Shown: positions 1 to 53,503 of the stretch, piece after piece
Layout: each line of letters begins with the position of its first letter
Position numbering within the stretch: position 1 is the stretch's first letter
Made by a program: the position numbers and the translations under genes
Origin: Shigella phage ESh15
Reading direction: 5' to 3' (one strand)
Length of the DNA: 64,000 nucleotides
Sequence record: ON528725
Notes under the pieces: generated by a model
The model's input: only the letters and a program-made list of their open reading frames with translations
Told to the model about the DNA's origin: nothing
The model's database searches: none

Positions 1-417
1 ATTAACTGACAACATATCGGTTTTTAAGAATTCGTCAATATAAAAACGTGGTTTATTAGGGTCTGCAGTGATATTGAAATTGAATTCTACATCAAAAGCG
101 CCGCCATAACCAGTGATATCTGTGATTAGAAAATCACAATCATAATAATCAATTAATGAATCAACCACAAATTCATTTTCAGACCAGAAATATTTACGAG
201 TGTTATACGCGTTATCTTTATACCATAATGGAACAAACTTAAATTCCGGGAAAAGACGTTCACATTCTTTAATATCAGATGCATTACGTGGATATGTAAT
301 CACATCACCTGGATTAGCACGGTGCAAATGAAGTTGGAAGTTGCCATCCTTAAGGATAGCATACTGTCCAGTTTCATAAGACCGCATACTCAAGATTGGT
401 ACGCGGAAAATAGCCAT
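1..417 (-). CDS. hypothetical protein, N-terminal part only (gene runs past window start); occupies the position where T4 has beta-glucosyltransferase
   Basis: ATG at 417..415 overlaps gene 42 stop (TAATG); open frame to window edge (MAIFRVPILSMRSYETGQ...); not in ORF track because it has no stop in window; no family recognised. Confidence 0.45.
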   Translation of the reverse strand, partial: MAIFRVPILSMRSYETGQYAILKDGNFQLHLHRANPGDVITYPRNASDIKECERLFPEFKFVPLWYKDNAYNTRKYFWSENEFVVDSLIDYYDCDFLITDITGYGGAFDVEFNFNITADPNKPRFYIDEFLKTDMLSVN

Positions 418-1133
418 TAGTCAAGGAATCCTTTAACATAATCAAAATCACGTTCAAACACATGGGCACTTACCATGGTATGAGTATAATCACCAACTTC
501 TACACCGCATTCGTTAGCGATATAATGAAGTAATTTTCCTTGGAGATAAAAATCCAACTGCATAACAACAGCACAGTTCTGAGAACGCATATGACAGTGT
601 GTATAAAGCTTACCATCACGAATATAATAAGTCACTGAGTCAGTACATGGATATTCAAGCGTTTCGTCTGAATCAAGCAAAGCCTGATCAGAACTTTCTA
701 GAATTTGGAACACAACTCTTCGAGAGTTAGGCTTCTCTTTAAGTTCTTTTAGAAGAGCTGGTAATTGAGCCGCAATGCGAGGACCATAGAAAGTGTTGAA
801 GTTCGCAGGCAAAGCATCTGATTTTGGTTTAGAAATAAATTTAGCGACATTAGGATATGCCTTAAACGCTTCTTCTGCATCAGTACCACCAGAAATCATA
901 AACTTCCAGAAGTCTTCGGCATATTCATAAGAGATGCGGTTAATACGTGGGTCGGTCATTTTGAATGATGATGGAGTGTCAACAACTACTGTCATAGACC
1001 CAATTTCATTACAACGTCCAATACGAGAATCAGTTACGAATTCCGGGTTTTCTAAAATTTCACGATTGACTGCTTTAAATGCGGTTTGAAAATCTGCGGC
1101 TTTGATATATTTCATTGTGTTATGTTTTCCCAT
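417..1133 (-). CDS. 42: dCMP hydroxymethylase-like protein (thymidylate synthase superfamily)
   Basis: 238 aa; active-site-like P-C-T-x-x-V-x-Y-x-I-R and SRR motifs; position equivalent to T4 gene 42. Confidence 0.6.
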   Translation of the reverse strand: MGKHNTMKYIKAADFQTAFKAVNREILENPEFVTDSRIGRCNEIGSMTVVVDTPSSFKMTDPRINRISYEYAEDFWKFMISGGTDAEEAFKAYPNVAKFISKPKSDALPANFNTFYGPRIAAQLPALLKELKEKPNSRRVVFQILESSDQALLDSDETLEYPCTDSVTYYIRDGKLYTHCHMRSQNCAVVMQLDFYLQGKLLHYIANECGVEVGDYTHTMVSAHVFERDFDYVKGFLD

Positions 1134-1175
1134 GTTTACCTCAATACAATTTATTATATACTCAATTCGTAAAGC

Positions 1176-1415
1176 TTATTTGAATTTCTTGACAATGTTG
1201 ATATAACGTAAAGCTTCAGCATCGATACTTCCAAGAACACTATGAAGGAATGCATCAGTGTAGTATTCCAATTGAACCGGTTCTTTAATCACTTTAGCCG
1301 CTTTGGTTTCAAACAGGCCCATAAGGGCCTTTTTAAGAATTTGTTCGTTAGTGTTCAGTTTTATAGTCAAAATCTCTTCATTAAGTTTATAATTAAAAGT
1401 TTTTCTAGAAATCAT
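1176..1415 (-). CDS. hypothetical protein (79 aa)
   Basis: ORF with 4-nt overlap to upstream gene; hydrophilic, so not an Imm-like membrane protein. Confidence 0.45.
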   Translation of the reverse strand: MISRKTFNYKLNEEILTIKLNTNEQILKKALMGLFETKAAKVIKEPVQLEYYTDAFLHSVLGSIDAEALRYINIVKKFK

Positions 1416-2572
1416 TCCGGGTACCTCAAAGCGTCATCAGAGTTAGTTATATCAATAATAGATATGGAGTTTTCTGCTAACCCGTTTTTAGATAATTGAC
1501 GTTTATAATATCTTTCACAATATGTACACGTTGACCCACAGATTTCATTGGCACAATCAAAATCCGGATGTCTGAACCACCTTTTTTCTAAAAAGCCATC
1601 TAACAAAGAGGTTTCAATATTTACTGTATGTGAAAACTCAGTCTCATTTTCAAGAGTGAAAATAGTCTCTAAAGGCTTCCACAGTTCTAACAAATTACCT
1701 TCAAACTTTTCAGAAGCGTATGCTTCAAGAACTTTCAAAATGTAGTCTGTGCTACCTGTACGTCCTGAAACTTTGAATTGAGTGATACCAATATCATTAT
1801 AAAGTTTCAAATCTTGAGGACGAACAAAACGAGTTCTCAACCAGTTAAATGGGTCCGTATCACGAGCTTTAATGCAGTGTTGCATTGGATATCCATTTAA
1901 GGATTTAGCATCATCAGCTGTAACATCAGTACTATGGAAAATATAGCAAGAGTCACGATAGCTACAATGTGTTGTATACCCTTTACCAGCATTAGAACAG
2001 AACTCATTTACAAGAACTTCAAATATTATATTGTTCTTATTGCAAAACTCTGCTGCACGCTTCAGGAAAGAAACTGAACGGTTCTTATGAATTCCGCAAC
2101 AGACTTTTTTGATGTTATATTGGTCGTGCAAGTATTTGATTTGAGTTACGGCATCAACATGTAGAATTGTTGAAACTTCAATCTCAATATCTTTATTGAC
2201 TTCACGAACAATTTCCATAACAACAGGGTTAGCGATAGTAATACGCCATACGCCTATTGACCAAAGATACTGAACATAATCCTGAATAGCTTTCTTCTTC
2301 CACTCAACTAGTTCTCTTTTTGAACCAGGATTTATCGTGTTGAGTGTATAGTTAAAGCAAATACCTAATTCATTACAACGTTTAACATAGTCTTCTAACA
2401 TCTTTTTGTCAACGTCAGGAAGCCTAAAATCAGGTCTGGCTGCTACAAAAGCCATTTCTCTTGTAGAGCCGTATACTTCATTTATCAAGCTATTAGGATA
2501 AGTTTTATTGAGCTCTACGATTTTATCAAGAAGAGCTAAATCAAAATTCGTTCCGATTTTAAAAGTATTCAT
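1412..2572 (-). CDS. Cys-rich protein with C-terminal CxxxCxxC cluster, possible Fe-S enzyme; fold unassigned
   Basis: 386 aa; C-terminal C-x4-C-x3-C-x2-C (DFDCANEICGSTCTYC) plus several other Cys; weak resemblance to U32-type TIM-barrel proteins (FNYTLNTI segment). Confidence 0.6.
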   Translation of the reverse strand: MNTFKIGTNFDLALLDKIVELNKTYPNSLINEVYGSTREMAFVAARPDFRLPDVDKKMLEDYVKRCNELGICFNYTLNTINPGSKRELVEWKKKAIQDYVQYLWSIGVWRITIANPVVMEIVREVNKDIEIEVSTILHVDAVTQIKYLHDQYNIKKVCCGIHKNRSVSFLKRAAEFCNKNNIIFEVLVNEFCSNAGKGYTTHCSYRDSCYIFHSTDVTADDAKSLNGYPMQHCIKARDTDPFNWLRTRFVRPQDLKLYNDIGITQFKVSGRTGSTDYILKVLEAYASEKFEGNLLELWKPLETIFTLENETEFSHTVNIETSLLDGFLEKRWFRHPDFDCANEICGSTCTYCERYYKRQLSKNGLAENSISIIDITNSDDALRYPE

Positions 2573-2630
2573 TTTTGCATCTCGCGTTAATTGATGCGAT
2601 GGGTTTTTTTTGCAGGTCTTACTTAAATTA

Positions 2631-3032
2631 TTATAGATTCGGTTTATACGATTTAAATGTTTCGAATTCGCCTTTATTCATAAGAGCTTTGAATTCGTCA
2701 GGACGCATAGCTTTGTCGTCGATAATCCAATCATATACTGGTTTATGTGTTAGCAAATTATGGTACTTCAAACCAATGTTTTCCAAGTTCTGAATCAGAC
2801 TTGGGAGAATGTCAATTGCTATACGACCAGGACCTACTGACTTCATACCACGAGCAGTGTAAAGCGTTATGGTATGCCCTGCATCATACAGGGCATTAAT
2901 GGCAGACACCATTTCGACGTCTGGTTTGAAGTTCACGTAATCACGATTGTTATTCCATTCCGTGATGCAATCATCGACATCAAAACAAAGATTAAGCATG
3001 TTTTCTACACGGTGCATTAGATTCGTTCCCAT
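2631..3032 (-). CDS. HAD-like phosphatase (small, KdsC-like)
   Basis: 133 aa; motif I-like FDVDDCIT, TARG, C-terminal WIIDDKA acidic motif; alternative start at 3017 overlapping upstream stop (TAATG). Confidence 0.5.
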   Translation of the reverse strand: MGTNLMHRVENMLNLCFDVDDCITEWNNNRDYVNFKPDVEMVSAINALYDAGHTITLYTARGMKSVGPGRIAIDILPSLIQNLENIGLKYHNLLTHKPVYDWIIDDKAMRPDEFKALMNKGEFETFKSYKPNL

Positions 3033-4705
3033 TGATGAGTGATATCGCCACCGATTGGACGATAGGAAACACCAGTTTCTTTATCAGTTAGTACCCATTT
3101 ACCAGGATTTTTTGTAATCAGAGTAGCCGTTACAGGTTCTGCTACGTCATAACTAATAGAGCCGTCTTGAAGTACACGACCCATGTTACGTAATTGCTTA
3201 GTCAGAAGTTCCATACCTTTATAATATGCTGCTACCGCTTTAAGTGGATTATTCTTGAAATAACCACCTAATGCAATCCAGATAATTGCTACTGCCAAAT
3301 GATGATACTCGTTAAACGAACTCATCTTTCCATATTTGTAAACTAGTGGATTGATGTTAATAGTCACATTACAAGTTGTTTCATCAATAATAAACTGGCC
3401 CCAGGTCGGATTAGCGTTGAATTCATCATAACCTGAAACAGCATAAAGCACTTTAGCTTCATCATACAATTTTGGCCCGTAAATCTTGGTTTCACCAAAA
3501 TATCCACGAGGGTCGATAAACTTGACTTCGCCGTTATCAGTAATCATGGTATTACTGAAGTTCGGGTCACCGTGAATAACAGAGTACTGTCCCTGAGAAC
3601 GGTTATGATAGCGAATAAGATGTTCTAAAGCTTGTTTCAACATTGGCTTCAGATGTCCAATCTTAGTGTAGTTCACGTGTGTGATTTTACCAAATGAATC
3701 AATCAATGGCTGAATGCTTTCACAACGATCAATAACTTTCGTATAGAATTCTTTAGTGAAATCACGACGAACAGTTTCAGGACTTACAAAATAAGTGTCT
3801 GTGCTGAATTTCAGTGCATCTAAAATTACATCAACAATTTGTGGACGAGCAAGACTTGATTTGGATTTAATATATTCAAATGCTGGCTTACCTTTAATAC
3901 GTTCCATAATAAAGTGGCCGCCAGGATGATAACTTACAATCTGTGGAACTGAATCTGATTTAACTTTCTTATACCAATTGACTTCATCTTTTTGAAGTGC
4001 AACGCCCTGTTCTGTTAAAGCAATCTTTGTTACCGTTTCTTCGCCAATTTCAACTGCATTAAAACTACGATTAAGTTCACGAACTTCATGAGCTTTTTCA
4101 AGTTTAGGCATATCACCAAGGTCGATGATATTCATAAGCTCTGATTTATTGAATGCGCCGCTGTAAAGGAATTCTACGAAATCACGTCCTTTGCAGTATT
4201 CATGAATTTCCTCATCAGTAGAACCCATATAGAATTCCCAGTCTTTGAACTGATAAATTCCTACAACATTACCACCTGTTGAACCTACGTTAGTGATATT
4301 TTCACCGTCGAAATTATATCGACATTCGTCACCCTTAACATAGATTGCGTTAACATTCCAAGACCATGAACCAAAATCAGGAATAATATCGCACCAGTTA
4401 ACAACTACGTTATGGCCGTCTAAATCTTTATGTAATTTAGCAAGAGCATAAGCAGAACCATACGCTTCATCAACTGTACGAATAGTCACATTGAACCCTT
4501 CTTGCTCACAATAAGCTCGAACAGTTTCAGCAAATTTTGAATGAACTACTACAATAATTTCATCTGCACCAAGGTCAGAATAAATTGTATACAAATTGCT
4601 CAGAATAGTGTCTTGTTTATAGTTCACAAGAACTTTTGGAATATGGTGAGTAATTGGATATAAACGAGTTGCCAATCCAGCACCAAGAATAACAGCTTTT
4701 TTCAT
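3017..4705 (-). CDS. bifunctional sugar-1-phosphate nucleotidyltransferase (N-terminal) / APH-ChoK-type sugar kinase (C-terminal)
   Basis: 562 aa; N-terminal ILGAGLATRLYPIT resembles RmlA/GalU G-x-G-T-R-L-Y-P-I-T; C-terminal HGDPNFSN (H-x-D-x4-N kinase catalytic motif) and FIDPRG. Confidence 0.7.
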   Translation of the reverse strand: MKKAVILGAGLATRLYPITHHIPKVLVNYKQDTILSNLYTIYSDLGADEIIVVVHSKFAETVRAYCEQEGFNVTIRTVDEAYGSAYALAKLHKDLDGHNVVVNWCDIIPDFGSWSWNVNAIYVKGDECRYNFDGENITNVGSTGGNVVGIYQFKDWEFYMGSTDEEIHEYCKGRDFVEFLYSGAFNKSELMNIIDLGDMPKLEKAHEVRELNRSFNAVEIGEETVTKIALTEQGVALQKDEVNWYKKVKSDSVPQIVSYHPGGHFIMERIKGKPAFEYIKSKSSLARPQIVDVILDALKFSTDTYFVSPETVRRDFTKEFYTKVIDRCESIQPLIDSFGKITHVNYTKIGHLKPMLKQALEHLIRYHNRSQGQYSVIHGDPNFSNTMITDNGEVKFIDPRGYFGETKIYGPKLYDEAKVLYAVSGYDEFNANPTWGQFIIDETTCNVTININPLVYKYGKMSSFNEYHHLAVAIIWIALGGYFKNNPLKAVAAYYKGMELLTKQLRNMGRVLQDGSISYDVAEPVTATLITKNPGKWVLTDKETGVSYRPIGGDITHQWERI

Positions 4706-4746
4706 GTTGAAGTCCTCATTGGTAAGTAGATGTATTGTACACTATT

Positions 4747-4890
4747 CTAGTTAAAGCATTCATACTTTGCCTGTAGACCAATCATAATCCATCCAATTAC
4801 AAGTGTTGGAATCATTACTGGAACCGTTAAGCTCCAGTAGATAGTCATGACAAGCATCAATAGTAAAAGTCCTATTGTTATTGCTTTCAT
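4747..4890 (-). CDS. small hydrophobic membrane peptide (47 aa), below ORF-track cutoff
   Basis: ATG overlaps stop of SIS gene (ATGA); translation MKAITIGLLLLMLVMTIYWSLTVPVMIPTLVIGWIMIGLQAKYECFN; coordinates approximate. Confidence 0.35.
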   Translation of the reverse strand: MKAITIGLLLLMLVMTIYWSLTVPVMIPTLVIGWIMIGLQAKYECFN

Positions 4891-5522
4891 TGTTCGCCTC
4901 GTAACATGGCACCTAGTGCACCGCCAGGGTGGAACTTAAGGAAGTCATTAGAGGTAAATCCACGTTCAGACGAAAGGTTGATAGCGAACGTATCGATAAG
5001 CGCTAACAACAATGTAGTGGACATGGTCGGAGCTAAAGAGTTCTCGTCAACTTCTACCGCGATACCAGTACAGAACGTATAATCAAAAAGAGCTTCGTAT
5101 TCTTGTGGAATGTCAGGGTTACAATGTAACAGAATCTGTTTAACCTGAGGACGAATCATACGAAGATGTTTAGCAACACCTATCATTTCTTCAGTCTTAC
5201 CAGAACGACTAATATGAATCAACACATCATTAGGCGCAATGAATCCTGCATCACCGTGAGAATAATGCCCAGTGTTCAAGTACATACTCGGGATACCGAG
5301 TGAAGCAAATGTCTCAGAAGCTTTAGTTGCAATATTAGCATTCTTACCAACACCTGTAATAATTACTCGGCTTTCATAATTACTAAGTCCAGGGCGTCGA
5401 AGAGTTTCTAGAATAGCATTATAACGAGCAGGGTTTTGACTAATTACTTTGGCCATGGTGGCAAGAGATGAAGCTTGTTTTACGATTGCGTCAATAGCGA
5501 TAGTGATTGGTGTAGTTTTCAT
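4887..5522 (-). CDS. SIS-domain sugar-phosphate isomerase (arabinose-5-phosphate isomerase KdsD/GutQ-like)
   Basis: 211 aa; VIITGVGKNANIATKASETFASLGIPSMYLNTGHYSHGD resembles the KdsD SIS core (GxGKS...HGD); no CBS domains. Confidence 0.7.
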   Translation of the reverse strand: MKTTPITIAIDAIVKQASSLATMAKVISQNPARYNAILETLRRPGLSNYESRVIITGVGKNANIATKASETFASLGIPSMYLNTGHYSHGDAGFIAPNDVLIHISRSGKTEEMIGVAKHLRMIRPQVKQILLHCNPDIPQEYEALFDYTFCTGIAVEVDENSLAPTMSTTLLLALIDTFAINLSSERGFTSNDFLKFHPGGALGAMLRGEQ

Positions 5523-14959: not shown

Positions 14960-14983
14960 AAAAAAGGAACTCCGAAGAGTTCC
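14960..14983 (-). terminator. rho-independent terminator
   Basis: minus-strand GGAACUC-UUCG-GAGUUCC followed by UUUUUU. Confidence 0.6.
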
Positions 14984-15156
14984 TATCCACATAGTACACC
15001 GTACAGAGGCTCATTTGAACTTTTAAATCGAATGGGCTTGTACGTAATAGTTCCTTCGGCTTTAGCTTTATCATAAGACTCTTTAAAACATCTCATTCTT
15101 TCTGCTTTGCCTTTACGGATTTTATCGAAATTTTCAGAAGTCGGGATGTTCGTCAT
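14983..15156 (-). CDS. small hypothetical protein (57 aa), below ORF-track cutoff
   Basis: ATG with GAGAGGTG RBS; MTNIPTSENFDKIRKGKAERMRCF...; ends at the terminator. Confidence 0.4.
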   Translation of the reverse strand: MTNIPTSENFDKIRKGKAERMRCFKESYDKAKAEGTITYKPIRFKSSNEPLYGVLCG

Positions 15157-15195
15157 GCATAAGCACCTCTCAGAAAATGCCTAAATCGATTTCTC

Positions 15196-15417
15196 TCATC
15201 GTTTCCACCATTTCTTAACTTGAAATGAATCAACCCACACGAGTTGTTTTGGGTCTGCCTTTACAATAGGCGGACAAATTTCTGTAATAGAACCGTCGTG
15301 ATATTCCTTTTCGGAAATTTTAACACAAAGAGGACCACCCAATTTAATGGTGAACCCTGCGTTCAGCTTCAGACGTTTAAACTTTGTTTGAACTAGCGCC
15401 ATTAATGATGTCCTCAA
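15196..15417 (-). CDS. hypothetical protein
   Basis: 73 aa ORF; note that no alpha-glucosyltransferase-sized gene lies between 47 and 55. Confidence 0.4.
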   Translation of the reverse strand: MRTSLMALVQTKFKRLKLNAGFTIKLGGPLCVKISEKEYHDGSITEICPPIVKADPKQLVWVDSFQVKKWWKR

Positions 15418-15700
15418 TAGCCTGACGAGTAGTAATCCACTGGATTTTAATTAACTTGTCATTATATGGTTGTCGTAGAATATCCCGAGATTTCTTAATA
15501 GCATATTCGTAAGCTTCGAAGTTGTTTTGAATTGCTGCTTCTTGAGCATGAGCATAAAGTCGATTTAGTTCAAAACGATTCTTTTTAAGAATCTTTTCGG
15601 ATTTTTTACGTGCTTCAGCTTCATTTTTCTTTTGTATTTCTTGTAGCATTTTAGCTACTGCATCTTCTGCTTCTTTATTTTCAATAATCTCGGTAGTCAT
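15377..15700 (-). CDS. hypothetical coiled-coil protein
   Basis: 107 aa ORF. Confidence 0.45.
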   Translation of the reverse strand: MTTEIIENKEAEDAVAKMLQEIQKKNEAEARKKSEKILKKNRFELNRLYAHAQEAAIQNNFEAYEYAIKKSRDILRQPYNDKLIKIQWITTRQAIEDIINGASSNKV

Positions 15701-15701
15701 A

Positions 15702-15917
15702 TTATCTCATTAAATTAAAATAAAAACGTCCGTCCTCTTCAATACAGAACTCGTACTCAACTGGAGTCCCATTTATCGAAAATGACACGTCATGTGGGTT
15801 CAAAGGGTCGATGTCAAAATTAATTTTAAATTCTCGACCCAACAGTTTTACCAAATAAGGGATTGCTTCGTCAAAAGGTTCTTCTAAGTAGTTAGAGATG
15901 TCAATTGTCGTCCTCAT
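15702..15917 (-). CDS. hypothetical protein
   Basis: ORF-track 15702..15995; likely start at internal Met 15917 to limit overlap with gene 55. Confidence 0.4.
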
Positions 15918-52768: not shown

Positions 52769-53503
52769 TTACCTTAAGATTGTTTCAATTTTAGAATAAA
52801 GCTCTTCTAAAGAGCCGTCGTTTGTAATAACTAAATCGCCTTCTTCAATAGGCAACCCAGCTTCTGTAATATGTTTATCTGTGGATTCCATACCGGAGCG
52901 AACCACATGAATAACTGTAGCACCCATCGCTCTAGCGGTTTCCATTTCATGGACTTGACGTGTATCGGTTACGACATAGTAATCGAAATCACTTCCAATA
53001 TAATCCATATAGTTTAATGCAAAAAGCTTAACCCAATACATACGGTCAAATAAATTAACGACAACATCCGTACCGAGGGCTTGCATAAGACGGCGGATTG
53101 ACCATGTGTCGTTGATATTATTTATAGCTTCACGCAGGGCTTCATATGGTTTAATATCTAGATATGAATATCCACCTTCTAACGATGATAATACTTTAAC
53201 ATTATTAATTGGTAAATATTGACTTTGTAAATAAATTAGCGTTTCTTCCAATAATTCAATAACATCCAACTTATTGAGATTTAATGGTGTTTCACGATCG
53301 TATCCAACACCTTCAAAGTATTCGTATTTCAACTCGGTGAATACATCAGGGTTTTCAGCATGTTTACGACCCCAGGCTATTGCTAGAGCGTCTTTAATCG
53401 GATATGCTAATTGATATTTTACAGATTTAAAGTTTGAATTGATGTAATCAGCAGTAGTGTCTTTACCACTACGTTTGATGCCACTTAAAAAGATTAGCTC
53501 CAT
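52769..53503 (-). CDS. 1: deoxynucleoside monophosphate kinase
   Basis: 244 aa; P-loop FLSGIKRSGKDTTADY; C-terminus matches T4 gp1 pattern. Confidence 0.9.
   Translation of the reverse strand: MELIFLSGIKRSGKDTTADYINSNFKSVKYQLAYPIKDALAIAWGRKHAENPDVFTELKYEYFEGVGYDRETPLNLNKLDVIELLEETLIYLQSQYLPINNVKVLSSLEGGYSYLDIKPYEALREAINNINDTWSIRRLMQALGTDVVVNLFDRMYWVKLFALNYMDYIGSDFDYYVVTDTRQVHEMETARAMGATVIHVVRSGMESTDKHITEAGLPIEEGDLVITNDGSLEELYSKIETILR

What the first reader, a model, noticed from the sequence alone, without database searches (positions are those of the whole stretch)
1..417. No canonical glucosyltransferase genes; unknown partial gene at the beta-gt position
Between genes 47 and 55, where T4 has alpha-gt, there are only three small ORFs (15196..15917). 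Immediately downstream of gene 42, where T4 has beta-gt, an unrecognised gene begins (MAIFRVPILSMRSY...) and is translationally coupled to gene 42 (TAATG). It is a candidate for the transferase that uses the cassette product, but only 139 residues are visible.
Basis: partly seen in the sequence, partly recalled or inferred. Interest (0 to 1): 0.55.

Follow-up and report, generated by a model that had tools for sequence, protein, structure and literature searches.

The report
Phage DNA arabinosyltransferase gene, N-terminal half

Summary
Window 417..1 (minus strand) is an open 139-codon reading frame. It starts in a TAATG overlap with the upstream thymidylate-synthase-family gene and runs off the window edge.

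The window is a Mosigvirus (RB69-like). The ORF is 135/139 identical to RB69 ORF047c. In close relatives the full gene encodes 299 aa.

The window has no T4 alpha-gt, beta-gt or RB69 ORF003c-type gene.

The "gene 42" next door is 238/238 identical to RB69 gp48, a published 5-hydroxy-dCMP synthase. The acceptor is therefore 5-hydroxycytosine, not hmC.

The gene family tracks this synthase and the UDP-arabinose cassette across about 350 phage genomes. ORF003c-type transferases occur only in Mosigvirus and Acinetobacter phage records, the groups with published di- or tri-arabinosylated members.

Lee et al. (NAR 2026) already predicted RB69 gp46:47 as "arabinosyltransferase 1". Its activity has not been shown.

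Verdict: interpretation supported, and already known. One open point is whether the first sugar goes onto DNA or onto the free nucleotide.

The parts
1..417 (-). N-terminal 139 codons of a 299-aa GT-B-fold glycosyltransferase, orthologue of RB69 gp46:47 (ORF047c+046c), the predicted 5-hydroxycytosine alpha-arabinosyltransferase 1. The visible part corresponds almost exactly to the N-terminal (acceptor-side) Rossmann-like domain. About 160 codons lie beyond the window edge.
417..1133 (-). Thymidylate-synthase-family gene at the gene-42 position. It is a 5-hydroxy-dCMP synthase (flavin- and O2-dependent), not a dCMP hydroxymethylase. Its stop overlaps the transferase start (TAATG).
   Evidence: Pfam Thymidylat_synt. 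238/238 identical to RB69 gp48, which was shown experimentally to make 5hodCMP (PMC13326640). Only 24.8% identical to T4 gp42. Carries the RSQN (D169N-type) signature where T4 and PS2 have RSND.
1176..1415 (-). 79-aa ORF of unknown function inside the cassette (RB69 ORF049c homologue).
   Evidence: ORF list. Annotated as hypothetical in Bas46 and RB69. No Pfam hit.
1412..2572 (-). 386-aa Peptidase_U32-family protein of the cassette (RB69 gp50). Its role is unassigned.
   Evidence: Pfam PF01136, 42.2 bits, above the cut-off. Weak NCBIfam UbiU match.
2631..3032 (-). 133-aa HAD-type sugar-phosphate phosphatase (RB69 gp51; AfhF-like).
   Evidence: DVDDC motif in the sequence. NCBIfam TIGR01689 capsule-biosynthesis phosphatase, E 1.9e-13, below its cut-off. 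Role taken from PMC13326640.
3017..4705 (-). 562-aa bifunctional sugar kinase and sugar-1-phosphate nucleotidyltransferase that makes UDP-arabinofuranose (RB69 gp52:53; AfhE-like).
   Evidence: Pfam NTP_transferase at residues 3-99, plus weak kinase-family hits at 309-410. Role taken from PMC13326640, which cites He et al. 2026.
4887..5522 (-). 211-aa SIS-domain arabinose-5-phosphate isomerase (RB69 gp55).
   Evidence: Pfam SIS. PMC13326640, Table 1.
14983..15917 (-). Four small ORFs homologous to T4 a-gt.2, a-gt.3, a-gt.4 and a-gt.5. This is the alpha-gt neighbourhood with alpha-gt and mobB absent.
   Evidence: tblastn E 4.7e-23, 2.3e-29, 3.5e-32 and 2.6e-14. No hit for T4 alpha-gt or mobB. 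T4 gene map.

Best explanation
The partial ORF is the N-terminal, acceptor-side domain of a small (299 aa) two-domain GT-B glycosyltransferase. It is the window phage's orthologue of RB69 gp46:47.

Proposed mechanism:
1. The upstream, translationally coupled thymidylate-synthase homologue hydroxylates dCMP to 5-hydroxy-dCMP. This step is shown for the identical RB69 protein.
2. Kinases and the phage polymerase put 5-hydroxycytosine into DNA.
3. The adjacent cassette (SIS isomerase, kinase/uridylyltransferase, HAD phosphatase) turns ribulose-5-phosphate into UDP-D-arabinofuranose. This is shown for homologues in phage HY126, according to PMC13326640.
4. This enzyme transfers the first arabinofuranose from UDP-Araf to the 5-OH of 5-hydroxycytosine, giving the alpha-linked, base-proximal sugar. 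This step is inferred.
5. A second, unrelated-in-sequence GT-B enzyme (RB69 gp3 / ORF003c type, encoded outside this window) then adds the beta-linked second arabinose.

The result is hypermodified DNA that resists restriction enzymes and DNA-targeting CRISPR-Cas systems.

For: Orthology. The window ORF is 135/139 identical to RB69 ORF047c.

Context. It is stop/start-overlapped with a TS homologue that is 100% identical to the experimentally shown 5hodCMP synthase. The same overlap occurs in Thanatos and in a metagenomic phage.

Conserved triad. The order TS(N-type)-GT-P-loop kinase is kept in phages only 37-38% identical.

Phyletic pattern. This family is found in 348 phage records, with genus counts almost identical to those of the UDP-Ara enzyme: Escherichia 177/177, Acinetobacter 57/57, Klebsiella 26/25, Shigella 14/14, Enterobacter 9/9, Proteus 7/7, Yersinia 6/6. 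The ORF003c-type GT is found only in Mosigvirus (one copy; di-arabinose) and in Acinetobacter phages (two copies; tri-arabinose). Mono-arabinosylated Thanatos carries this GT, and no Shewanella or Serratia phage record matched the ORF003c-type GT.

Fusions. Natural fusions exist of this GT domain to a Tmk-like kinase and to a KdsC-like HAD phosphatase.

Independent published prediction. PMC13326640 (Table 1 and Results) and PMC13390438.
Against: - No enzymatic activity has been shown for any family member.
- Lee et al. saw no arabinosylation of 5hoC-DNA by individually purified DLP3 transferases, including the orthologue gp79, with UDP-Araf or UDP-Arap (PMC13326640).
- The Thanatos orthologue TH1_063 did not transfer xylose to DNA, dCMP, dCTP or cytosine. 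It was instead reported to form UDP-xylose from UTP and xylose-1-phosphate (PMC12838424).
- There is no sequence-level link to any curated GT family. Pfam and NCBIfam give nothing for the protein. Pfam also gives nothing for 78 distant relatives. hhalign against ORF003c-type, alpha-gt and beta-gt proteins gives probability below 1%.
- Foldseek's lowest E-values go to UDP-GlcNAc 2-epimerases, which share the fold but are not transferases.
- Only the N-terminal domain lies in the window, so the donor-binding half is inferred from relatives.
Confidence: 0.75

Rival explanations
1. Same enzyme, different substrate level. The transferase arabinosylates the free nucleotide (5-hydroxy-dCMP). The adjacent Tmk-like kinase then phosphorylates the glycosylated nucleotide, and the polymerase incorporates an already arabinosylated dCTP (pre-replicative glycosylation).
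For: - The gene order TS-GT-kinase matches that reaction order and is conserved in distant phages.
- GT-kinase fusion proteins exist.
- RB69's T4-type dNMP kinase gp159 already phosphorylates 5hodCMP (PMC13326640). A homologue is in the window at 52769..53503. This leaves the extra Tmk-like kinase without a necessary role.
- Purified GTs did not act on 5hoC-DNA, and the authors state they cannot tell nucleotide-level from DNA-level addition (PMC13326640).
- The family is markedly acidic: median pI 5.2 and net charge -10, against +6 for T4 beta-GT.
Against: - In the phage DNA hypermodification pathways reviewed in PMC13326640, groups are transferred to a pre-existing hydroxyl in DNA after replication.
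- The later arabinoses are added on DNA (PMC13326640, Fig. 5).
- T4 alpha-GT and the gp3-type GT are also mildly acidic, so charge is weak evidence.
- Gene fusion shows a shared pathway, not the order of steps.
- TH1_063 gave no product with dCMP or dCTP, though these lacked the 5-OH (PMC12838424).
Confidence: 0.15
2. The protein is a UDP-pentose pyrophosphorylase that makes the activated sugar, as reported for the Thanatos orthologue TH1_063, and not a transferase.
For: TH1_063 is 47.8% identical to the full-length relative and sits in the same position after the TS homologue. It produced UDP-xylose from UTP and xylose-1-phosphate in an LC-MS assay (PMC12838424).
Against: - The fold is GT-B, not the sugar-nucleotidyltransferase fold.
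- There is no NTP_transferase signature.
- The neighbouring 562-aa protein carries a genuine NTP_transferase domain, and its HY126 homologue is reported to be the UDP-arabinose pyrophosphorylase (PMC13326640). The pathway therefore needs no second one.
- The only control mentioned in the passages I read was 'no enzyme', so a co-purified E. coli uridylyltransferase, or reverse phosphorolysis by a retaining GT using contaminating UDP, could explain the product. This last point is my inference.
Confidence: 0.05
3. The protein is a non-transferase member of the GT-B superfamily, for example a UDP-sugar 2-epimerase-like enzyme that remodels the nucleotide sugar.
Against: - Phages with a single sugar on the base would then have no transferase at all. 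Thanatos is said to encode a single ara-GT, which is this one (PMC13326640).
- The RL38J1 homologue, which gives the same Foldseek pattern, is likewise assigned as the first glycosyltransferase (PMC13326640, Table 1).
Confidence: 0.04
4. The gene is a diverged orthologue of T4 beta-glucosyltransferase acting on hydroxymethylcytosine DNA, which is the reader's implicit T4 framing.
For: It has the same position immediately downstream of the gene-42-position gene, and both proteins are GT-B fold.
Against: - There is no sequence similarity: no tblastn hit and hhalign probability 0.1%.
- The phage makes 5-hydroxycytosine, not hmC (PMC13326640).
- Phage PS2 has a distant relative of this gene in addition to beta-gt and beta-alpha-gt, so the two are separate lineages.
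Confidence: 0.01

Closest known systems
RB69 gp46:47 (ORF047c+ORF046c), DLP3 gp79 and Thanatos TH1_063: predicted 5-hydroxycytosine 'arabinosyltransferase 1' (PHROG 3891)
   Different: Nothing substantive differs. There are four amino-acid differences from RB69 (A20S, D90A, G105D, N113I). In the RB69 GenBank record the gene is split in two by a sequencing error. Only the N-terminal domain is in the window.
RB69 gp3 / ORF003c, Bas46 'Aat' and the HY126 glycosyltransferase (PDB 9iqz, 9ir0): second arabinosyltransferase
   Different: There is no detectable sequence relationship (BLAST E 6.6; hhalign probability 0.3%). It is 366 aa against 299 aa. It is encoded about 21 kb away, between rIIA and the topoisomerase gene. 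It occurs only in phages with two or three arabinoses. It is proposed to add the beta-linked second sugar onto arabinose rather than onto the base.
T4 beta-glucosyltransferase (CAZy GT63) and alpha-glucosyltransferase (GT72)
   Same: They share the GT-B fold, use a UDP-sugar donor and modify a C5-substituted cytosine. The beta-gt gene occupies the same genomic slot downstream of gene 42.
   Different: There is no sequence similarity. Their acceptor is the hydroxymethyl group of hmC in DNA and their sugar is glucose. Here the acceptor is the phenol-like 5-OH of 5-hydroxycytosine and the sugar is arabinofuranose. DNA-level action is shown for the T4 enzymes and unproven here.
Bacterial GT4-type retaining glycosyltransferases (sucrose-phosphate synthase 6kih, BshA 6n1x, PimA 2gej, MshA 3c4q)
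   Different: Identity is only 8-12%. There is no match to the Pfam Glycos_transf_1 or Glyco_trans_4 models. The protein is about 60-100 residues shorter. It has a family-specific, invariant N-terminal motif (P-I-x-S-M-R-S-Y-E-T-G-x-Y-x-x-L-K-D-G-N) in place of the usual glycine-rich loop.

Membership tests
GT-B fold glycosyltransferase superfamily | Two Rossmann-like beta/alpha/beta domains joined by a linker, with a C-terminal helix crossing back | tested here: met
GT-B fold glycosyltransferase superfamily | Nucleotide-sugar-dependent glycosyl transfer | not testable with these tools
   Requires an enzyme assay. The literature reports no activity yet for this family (PMC13326640, PMC12838424).
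CAZy GT4 / Pfam Glycos_transf_1 (retaining GT-B) | Sequence match to the family models | tested here: not met
   No Pfam family at E <= 10 for P0001, P0023, P0094 or the window fragment. No GT family in 78 distant relatives. No NCBIfam hit. No PDB sequence hit with the family profile.
CAZy GT4 / Pfam Glycos_transf_1 (retaining GT-B) | C-domain Arg/Lys pair for the diphosphate and a conserved Glu on the nucleotide-binding helix (EX7E-type) | tested here: inconclusive
   R197, D200, N225, H270 and E275 are at least 90% conserved even among relatives of 20-30% identity. K246 is invariant in the closer set. I could not superpose coordinates to confirm that they occupy the canonical positions.
Phage 5-hydroxycytosine arabinosyltransferase 1 (RB69 gp46:47 family, PHROG 3891) | Orthology to RB69 gp46:47 | tested here: met
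   135/139 identical to ORF047c. PHROG 3891 E 1.8e-75. The full-length relative P0001 matches RB69 at 99% in two pieces (H50).
Phage 5-hydroxycytosine arabinosyltransferase 1 (RB69 gp46:47 family, PHROG 3891) | Lies immediately downstream of a D169N-type thymidylate-synthase homologue (5hodCMP synthase) | tested here: met
   TAATG overlap. The TS homologue is identical to RB69 gp48 and has RSQN where T4 has RSND. The same arrangement is seen in Thanatos, L008 and L009.
Phage 5-hydroxycytosine arabinosyltransferase 1 (RB69 gp46:47 family, PHROG 3891) | Co-occurs with the UDP-arabinose synthesis genes | tested here: met
   The cassette is present at window 1176-5522. Genus-level counts of the GT and of the AfhE-like enzyme are nearly identical over about 350 phage records. 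The distant member in L009 shows no cassette genes within 8 kb, so the family as a whole tracks 5hoC rather than arabinose.
Phage 5-hydroxycytosine arabinosyltransferase 1 (RB69 gp46:47 family, PHROG 3891) | Transfers arabinofuranose to 5hoC | not testable with these tools
   This is a prediction in the literature too. In vitro attempts with the DLP3 orthologue on 5hoC-DNA were negative (PMC13326640).
T4 beta-glucosyltransferase (GT63) | Sequence homology to T4 beta-gt | tested here: not met
T4 beta-glucosyltransferase (GT63) | Acts in an hmC-producing phage | tested here: not met
   The adjacent TS homologue is identical to the 5hodCMP synthase of RB69 (PMC13326640).
Sugar-1-phosphate nucleotidyltransferase (claim for TH1_063) | Nucleotidyltransferase fold or NTP_transferase signature | tested here: not met
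   The fold is GT-B. No Pfam NTP_transferase hit. That domain is in the neighbouring 562-aa protein.

The most novel reading that the evidence does not exclude
The first arabinose is attached before replication. This transferase would glycosylate free 5-hydroxy-dCMP. The Tmk-like kinase encoded next to it, and fused to it in some phages, would phosphorylate the arabinosylated nucleotide. The phage polymerase would then build DNA from an already glycosylated dCTP. To my knowledge that would be the first case of a sugar-bearing base entering DNA through the nucleotide pool rather than by post-replicative transfer.
Probability: 0.15. Interest if true: 0.8.

Novelty: already known. Interest (0 to 1): 0.3.

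Why it matters
Arabinosylated 5-hydroxycytosine protects a large group of T4-like phages, including therapeutic candidates against E. coli, Klebsiella and Acinetobacter, from restriction enzymes and DNA-targeting CRISPR-Cas systems.

The enzyme that puts the first sugar on the base is the one step of the pathway still without biochemical proof. This gene is the only credible candidate, and it belongs to a sequence-orphan branch of the GT-B fold that Pfam, NCBIfam and PHROGs do not name.

For this window the practical outcomes are corrected annotations:
- The gene is a predicted arabinosyltransferase, not a hypothetical protein.
- 'Gene 42' is a dCMP 5-hydroxylase.
- Any assay should use 5hoC substrates (DNA and nucleotides) with UDP-arabinofuranose, not hmC DNA.

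Tried and rejected
Searches and comparisons that gave nothing:
- Pfam at E <= 10, NCBIfam and a PDB sequence search with a 52-member family profile. None gave a meaningful hit.
- Pfam on 78 distant relatives recovered by the exhaustive profile search. No GT family matched.
- hhalign of the family profile against the ORF003c-type GT, T4 alpha-gt and T4 beta-gt. No relationship was detected. The templates were single sequences, which limits sensitivity.
- BLASTP of the window's HAD phosphatase and the Bas46 kinase against the fusion proteins. There were no hits to the extensions. hhalign then linked the C-terminal extensions to the Tmk-like kinase only moderately (probability 81%, E 1.3e-5). It did not link the N-terminal extensions to the window's HAD. 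The HAD nature of those extensions rests on the DxDG...GDD motifs and one weak Pfam hit.

Papers not held in the library:
- Mahler et al. 2025 (Cell Host Microbe) and He et al. 2026 (Nat Chem Biol) were not available. What they show about the transferases is known to me only through citing papers.

Considered and rejected:
- That the three or four small ORFs at the alpha-gt position could hide a transferase. They are homologues of T4 a-gt.2 to a-gt.5 and are 57-107 aa long.

- I could not obtain model coordinates, so no residue-level superposition or electrostatic surface was made.

Full report
**What is there**

On the minus strand, window 417..1 is an uninterrupted 139-codon reading frame (MAIFRVPILSMRSY...MLSVN) that runs off the left edge of the window.
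- Its ATG shares one base with the TAA stop of the upstream gene at 417..1133 (TAATG).
- An AAGGA lies 11 nt upstream of the ATG.
- The ORF is not a chance product. It matches PHROG 3891 at E 1.8e-75 and the corresponding gene of phage Bas46 at 98.6% identity.

The first 1200 bases of the window are 98-99% identical to about 150 Mosigvirus (RB69-like) genomes. In Bas46 the complete gene is 900 nt and encodes 299 aa. It is annotated as 'hypothetical protein' and is followed by a 182-aa thymidylate-kinase-like gene and then uvsX. In the RB69 GenBank record the gene is split into ORF047c and ORF046c. The window fragment is 135/139 identical to ORF047c.

T4 has 42 followed by beta-gt, and 47, 47.1, alpha-gt, mobB, a-gt.2 to a-gt.5, then 55.
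- The window has no sequence related to T4 alpha-gt, T4 beta-gt, PS2 beta-gt or beta-alpha-gt, or the RB69 ORF003c-type transferase (tblastn, E <= 0.01).
- Pfam finds no glycosyltransferase domain in the 14 larger ORFs I scanned.
- Between genes 47 and 55 there are four small ORFs rather than three. They are homologues of T4 a-gt.2, a-gt.3, a-gt.4 and a-gt.5. The neighbourhood is therefore conserved, with alpha-gt and the mobile endonuclease absent.

**The neighbour is not a dCMP hydroxymethylase**

The 'gene 42' protein is only 24.8% identical to T4 gp42. It is 238/238 identical to RB69 gp48.

Lee et al. (NAR 2026, PMC13326640) showed the following by expression in E. coli, 18O2 labelling and cofactor analysis:
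- gp48 is a flavin-dependent 5-hydroxy-dCMP synthase.
- RB69 DNA contains beta-D-Araf-(1-3)-alpha-D-Araf-5-hydroxy-deoxycytidine, not arabinosyl-hmC as first reported (PMC6024577).
- An Asp-to-Asn change at the position of E. coli ThyA D169 is a predictor of this activity.

In my alignment the window protein and the Thanatos homologue have RSQN and RSEN where T4 and PS2 have RSND. The acceptor for any transferase here is therefore the 5-OH of 5-hydroxycytosine.

**What the protein is**

Sequence methods give nothing:
- No Pfam hit at E <= 10.
- No NCBIfam hit.
- No PDB sequence hit, even with a 52-sequence family profile.
- No hhalign relationship to the ORF003c-type enzyme, alpha-gt or beta-gt.
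- An exhaustive profile search of 1.84 billion representative proteins found only 227 relatives. None of the 78 distant ones I scanned carries a Pfam GT domain.

Structure prediction is decisive.
- With the family alignment, AlphaFold2 gives pLDDT 95.2 and pTM 0.89, with two beta/alpha/beta domains (residues about 1-141 and 142-285) and a terminal helix.
- Foldseek agrees on the superfamily. It gives its lowest E-values to UDP-GlcNAc 2-epimerases, but its higher TM-scores (0.59-0.63) go to MshA, 6kih and other transferases.
- Beyond its own family, the viral structure library mostly returns viral glycosyltransferases, along with unnamed or uncharacterised entries.

The 139 residues in the window correspond almost exactly to the N-terminal domain, which in GT-B enzymes forms the acceptor side. 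This domain carries a family-specific invariant motif (M11 R12 S13 ... Y19 ... K23 D24 G25 N26 ... R33). The C-terminal domain, outside the window, carries the near-invariant residues R197, D200, N225, K246, H270 and E275.

**Genomic evidence for its role**

1. *Coupling.* The stop/start overlap with the TS homologue recurs in RB69, Bas46, Thanatos and a metagenomic phage.
2. *Triad.* In two metagenomic phages whose transferase is only 37-38% identical, the order TS homologue (RSNN or RSQN type), transferase, P-loop kinase is kept. A flavodoxin-like (FMN reductase family) gene lies just upstream in one locus and about 6 kb upstream in the other.
3. *Distribution.* The family occurs in 348 phage records. 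Its genus counts are almost the same as those of the kinase/uridylyltransferase of the arabinose cassette (373 records).
4. *Contrast with the second transferase.* The ORF003c-type transferase occurs in only 211 records. These are Mosigvirus with one copy and Acinetobacter phages with two.
5. *Match to sugar count.* Published data give one arabinose in Thanatos and LC53, two in RB69, Bas46 and NP, and three in DLP3 (PMC13326640, PMC13390438, bioRxiv 10.64898/2025.12.19.695335). The gene in this window is thus the one transferase common to all such phages, as expected for the enzyme that adds the base-proximal sugar.
6. *Fusions.* Natural fusions join this domain to a Tmk-like kinase (eight representatives with the kinase C-terminal, one with it N-terminal) and to a KdsC-like HAD phosphatase (seven representatives).

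**Comparison with the literature**

It is not proven:
- Purified DLP3 transferases, tested one at a time, did not arabinosylate 5hoC-DNA.
- The authors state they cannot say whether the first sugar is added to the mononucleotide or to DNA.
- The Thanatos orthologue TH1_063 (47.8% identical) was reported to make UDP-xylose from UTP and xylose-1-phosphate, and not to glycosylate DNA or unmodified cytosine nucleotides (PMC12838424).

I consider a pyrophosphorylase role unlikely. The fold is GT-B, and the neighbouring protein has the real nucleotidyltransferase domain. Contaminating host enzyme, or reverse phosphorolysis by a retaining GT using contaminating UDP, could explain the product (inference).

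**Most likely mechanism and what remains open**

1. dCMP is hydroxylated by the TS homologue. This is shown for the identical protein.
2. 5hodCMP is phosphorylated. This is shown for the T4-type dNMP kinase, whose homologue is at window 52769..53503.
3. The nucleotide is polymerised into DNA.
4. The cassette makes UDP-Araf. This is shown for HY126 homologues, according to PMC13326640.
5. This GT-B enzyme transfers the first, alpha-linked arabinofuranose to the 5-OH. This step is inferred.
6. The gp3-type enzyme, encoded outside the window, adds the second sugar.

The alternative that my data do not exclude is that step 5 happens on the free nucleotide and that the adjacent Tmk-like kinase handles the glycosylated product. 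The points in its favour are suggestive, not decisive:
- the gene order;
- the GT-kinase fusions;
- the apparent redundancy of that kinase;
- the negative DNA assays;
- the acidity of the family (median pI 5.2).

**Verdict**

Novelty is nil for the identification itself, and interest is modest.

Noticed in passing
window 1412-2572 (minus strand): The 386-aa cassette protein is a genuine Peptidase_U32 family member (Pfam 42 bits, above cut-off) with a weak UbiU match. It has Cys-rich stretches, including C-x4-C-x3-C-x2-C near the C-terminus. U32 proteins include RlhA (makes 5-hydroxycytidine in 23S rRNA, PMC5727448), TrhP (makes 5-hydroxyuridine in tRNA, PMC6599085) and UbiU/UbiV (O2-independent hydroxylases that use prephenate, PMC6747719, PMC10990095). 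This protein could be an oxygen-independent cytosine-5 hydroxylase that backs up the O2-dependent TS homologue in the anoxic gut. Lee et al. list it only as 'sugar or heterocycle reductase' and do not mention U32 or TrhP.
   Followed up: partly
proteins P0224, P0235, P0237, P0247, P0250, P0259, P0261, P0216, P0233 (kinase fusions); P0140, P0150, P0151, P0152, P0166, P0168, P0219 (HAD fusions): Metagenomic relatives of the transferase are fused to other pathway-type domains. One group carries a Tmk-like P-loop kinase domain (EGFDRIGKD motif; hhalign probability 81% to the Bas46/RB69 gp45 kinase). Another carries an N-terminal KdsC-like HAD phosphatase domain (DFDG...GDD motifs). These fusions tie the transferase to nucleotide phosphorylation and to sugar-phosphate processing.
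   Followed up: partly
L008:1-9682 and L009:6739-9594: In two distant metagenomic phages (contigs of 356 kb and 122 kb) the order N-type TS homologue, transferase, gp45-like kinase is conserved. L008 has one extra 200-aa gene between the TS homologue and the transferase. A Flavodoxin_2 (FMN-reductase-type) gene lies directly upstream of the TS homologue in L009 and about 6 kb upstream in L008, which fits a flavin-dependent hydroxylase. L009 shows no arabinose genes within 8 kb, so the transferase family seems tied to 5-hydroxycytosine rather than to arabinose.
   Followed up: partly
L005:5001-5927 (Serratia phage PS2 gp042; also Serratia phage Muldoon): Phages with a classical hydroxymethylase-type gene 42 (RSND), and with both beta-gt and beta-alpha-gt, carry a third gene right after gene 42. 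It is a distant relative of this transferase: 25% identity over the N-domain, Foldseek TM 0.73 for the Muldoon homologue. Its role in an hmC-glucose phage is unknown.
   Followed up: partly
window 14983-15917: The four small genes a-gt.2 to a-gt.5 that flank alpha-gt in T4 are retained (47-74% identity), although alpha-gt, mobB and 47.1 are absent. The small genes are therefore not functionally tied to glucosylation.
   Followed up: yes
window 417-1133 versus window 1-1917: The 5hodCMP synthase is 238/238 identical in protein to RB69 gp48, although the surrounding 1.9 kb of DNA is only 96.8% identical to RB69. Every difference within this gene must therefore be synonymous, which suggests strong purifying selection.
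   Followed up: no
public annotations of the orthologue: In some 350 phage records the transferase is almost always annotated as 'hypothetical protein'. Some rows list 'RNA polymerase binding protein', 'peptidase' or 'cysteine desulfurase' among the features under the match, possibly for this gene. RB69 still shows it as two ORFs. The neighbouring 5hodCMP synthase is widely annotated as thymidylate synthase or dCMP hydroxymethylase.
   Followed up: no
window 4747-4890 (minus strand): A 47-aa, very hydrophobic ORF (MKAITIGLLLLMLVMTIYWSLTVPVMIPTLVIGWIMIGLQAKYECFN) sits inside the arabinose cassette, between the isomerase and the kinase/uridylyltransferase. It is annotated in Bas46 (bas46_0147). 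A small membrane protein in a nucleotide-sugar operon is unexplained.
   Followed up: no
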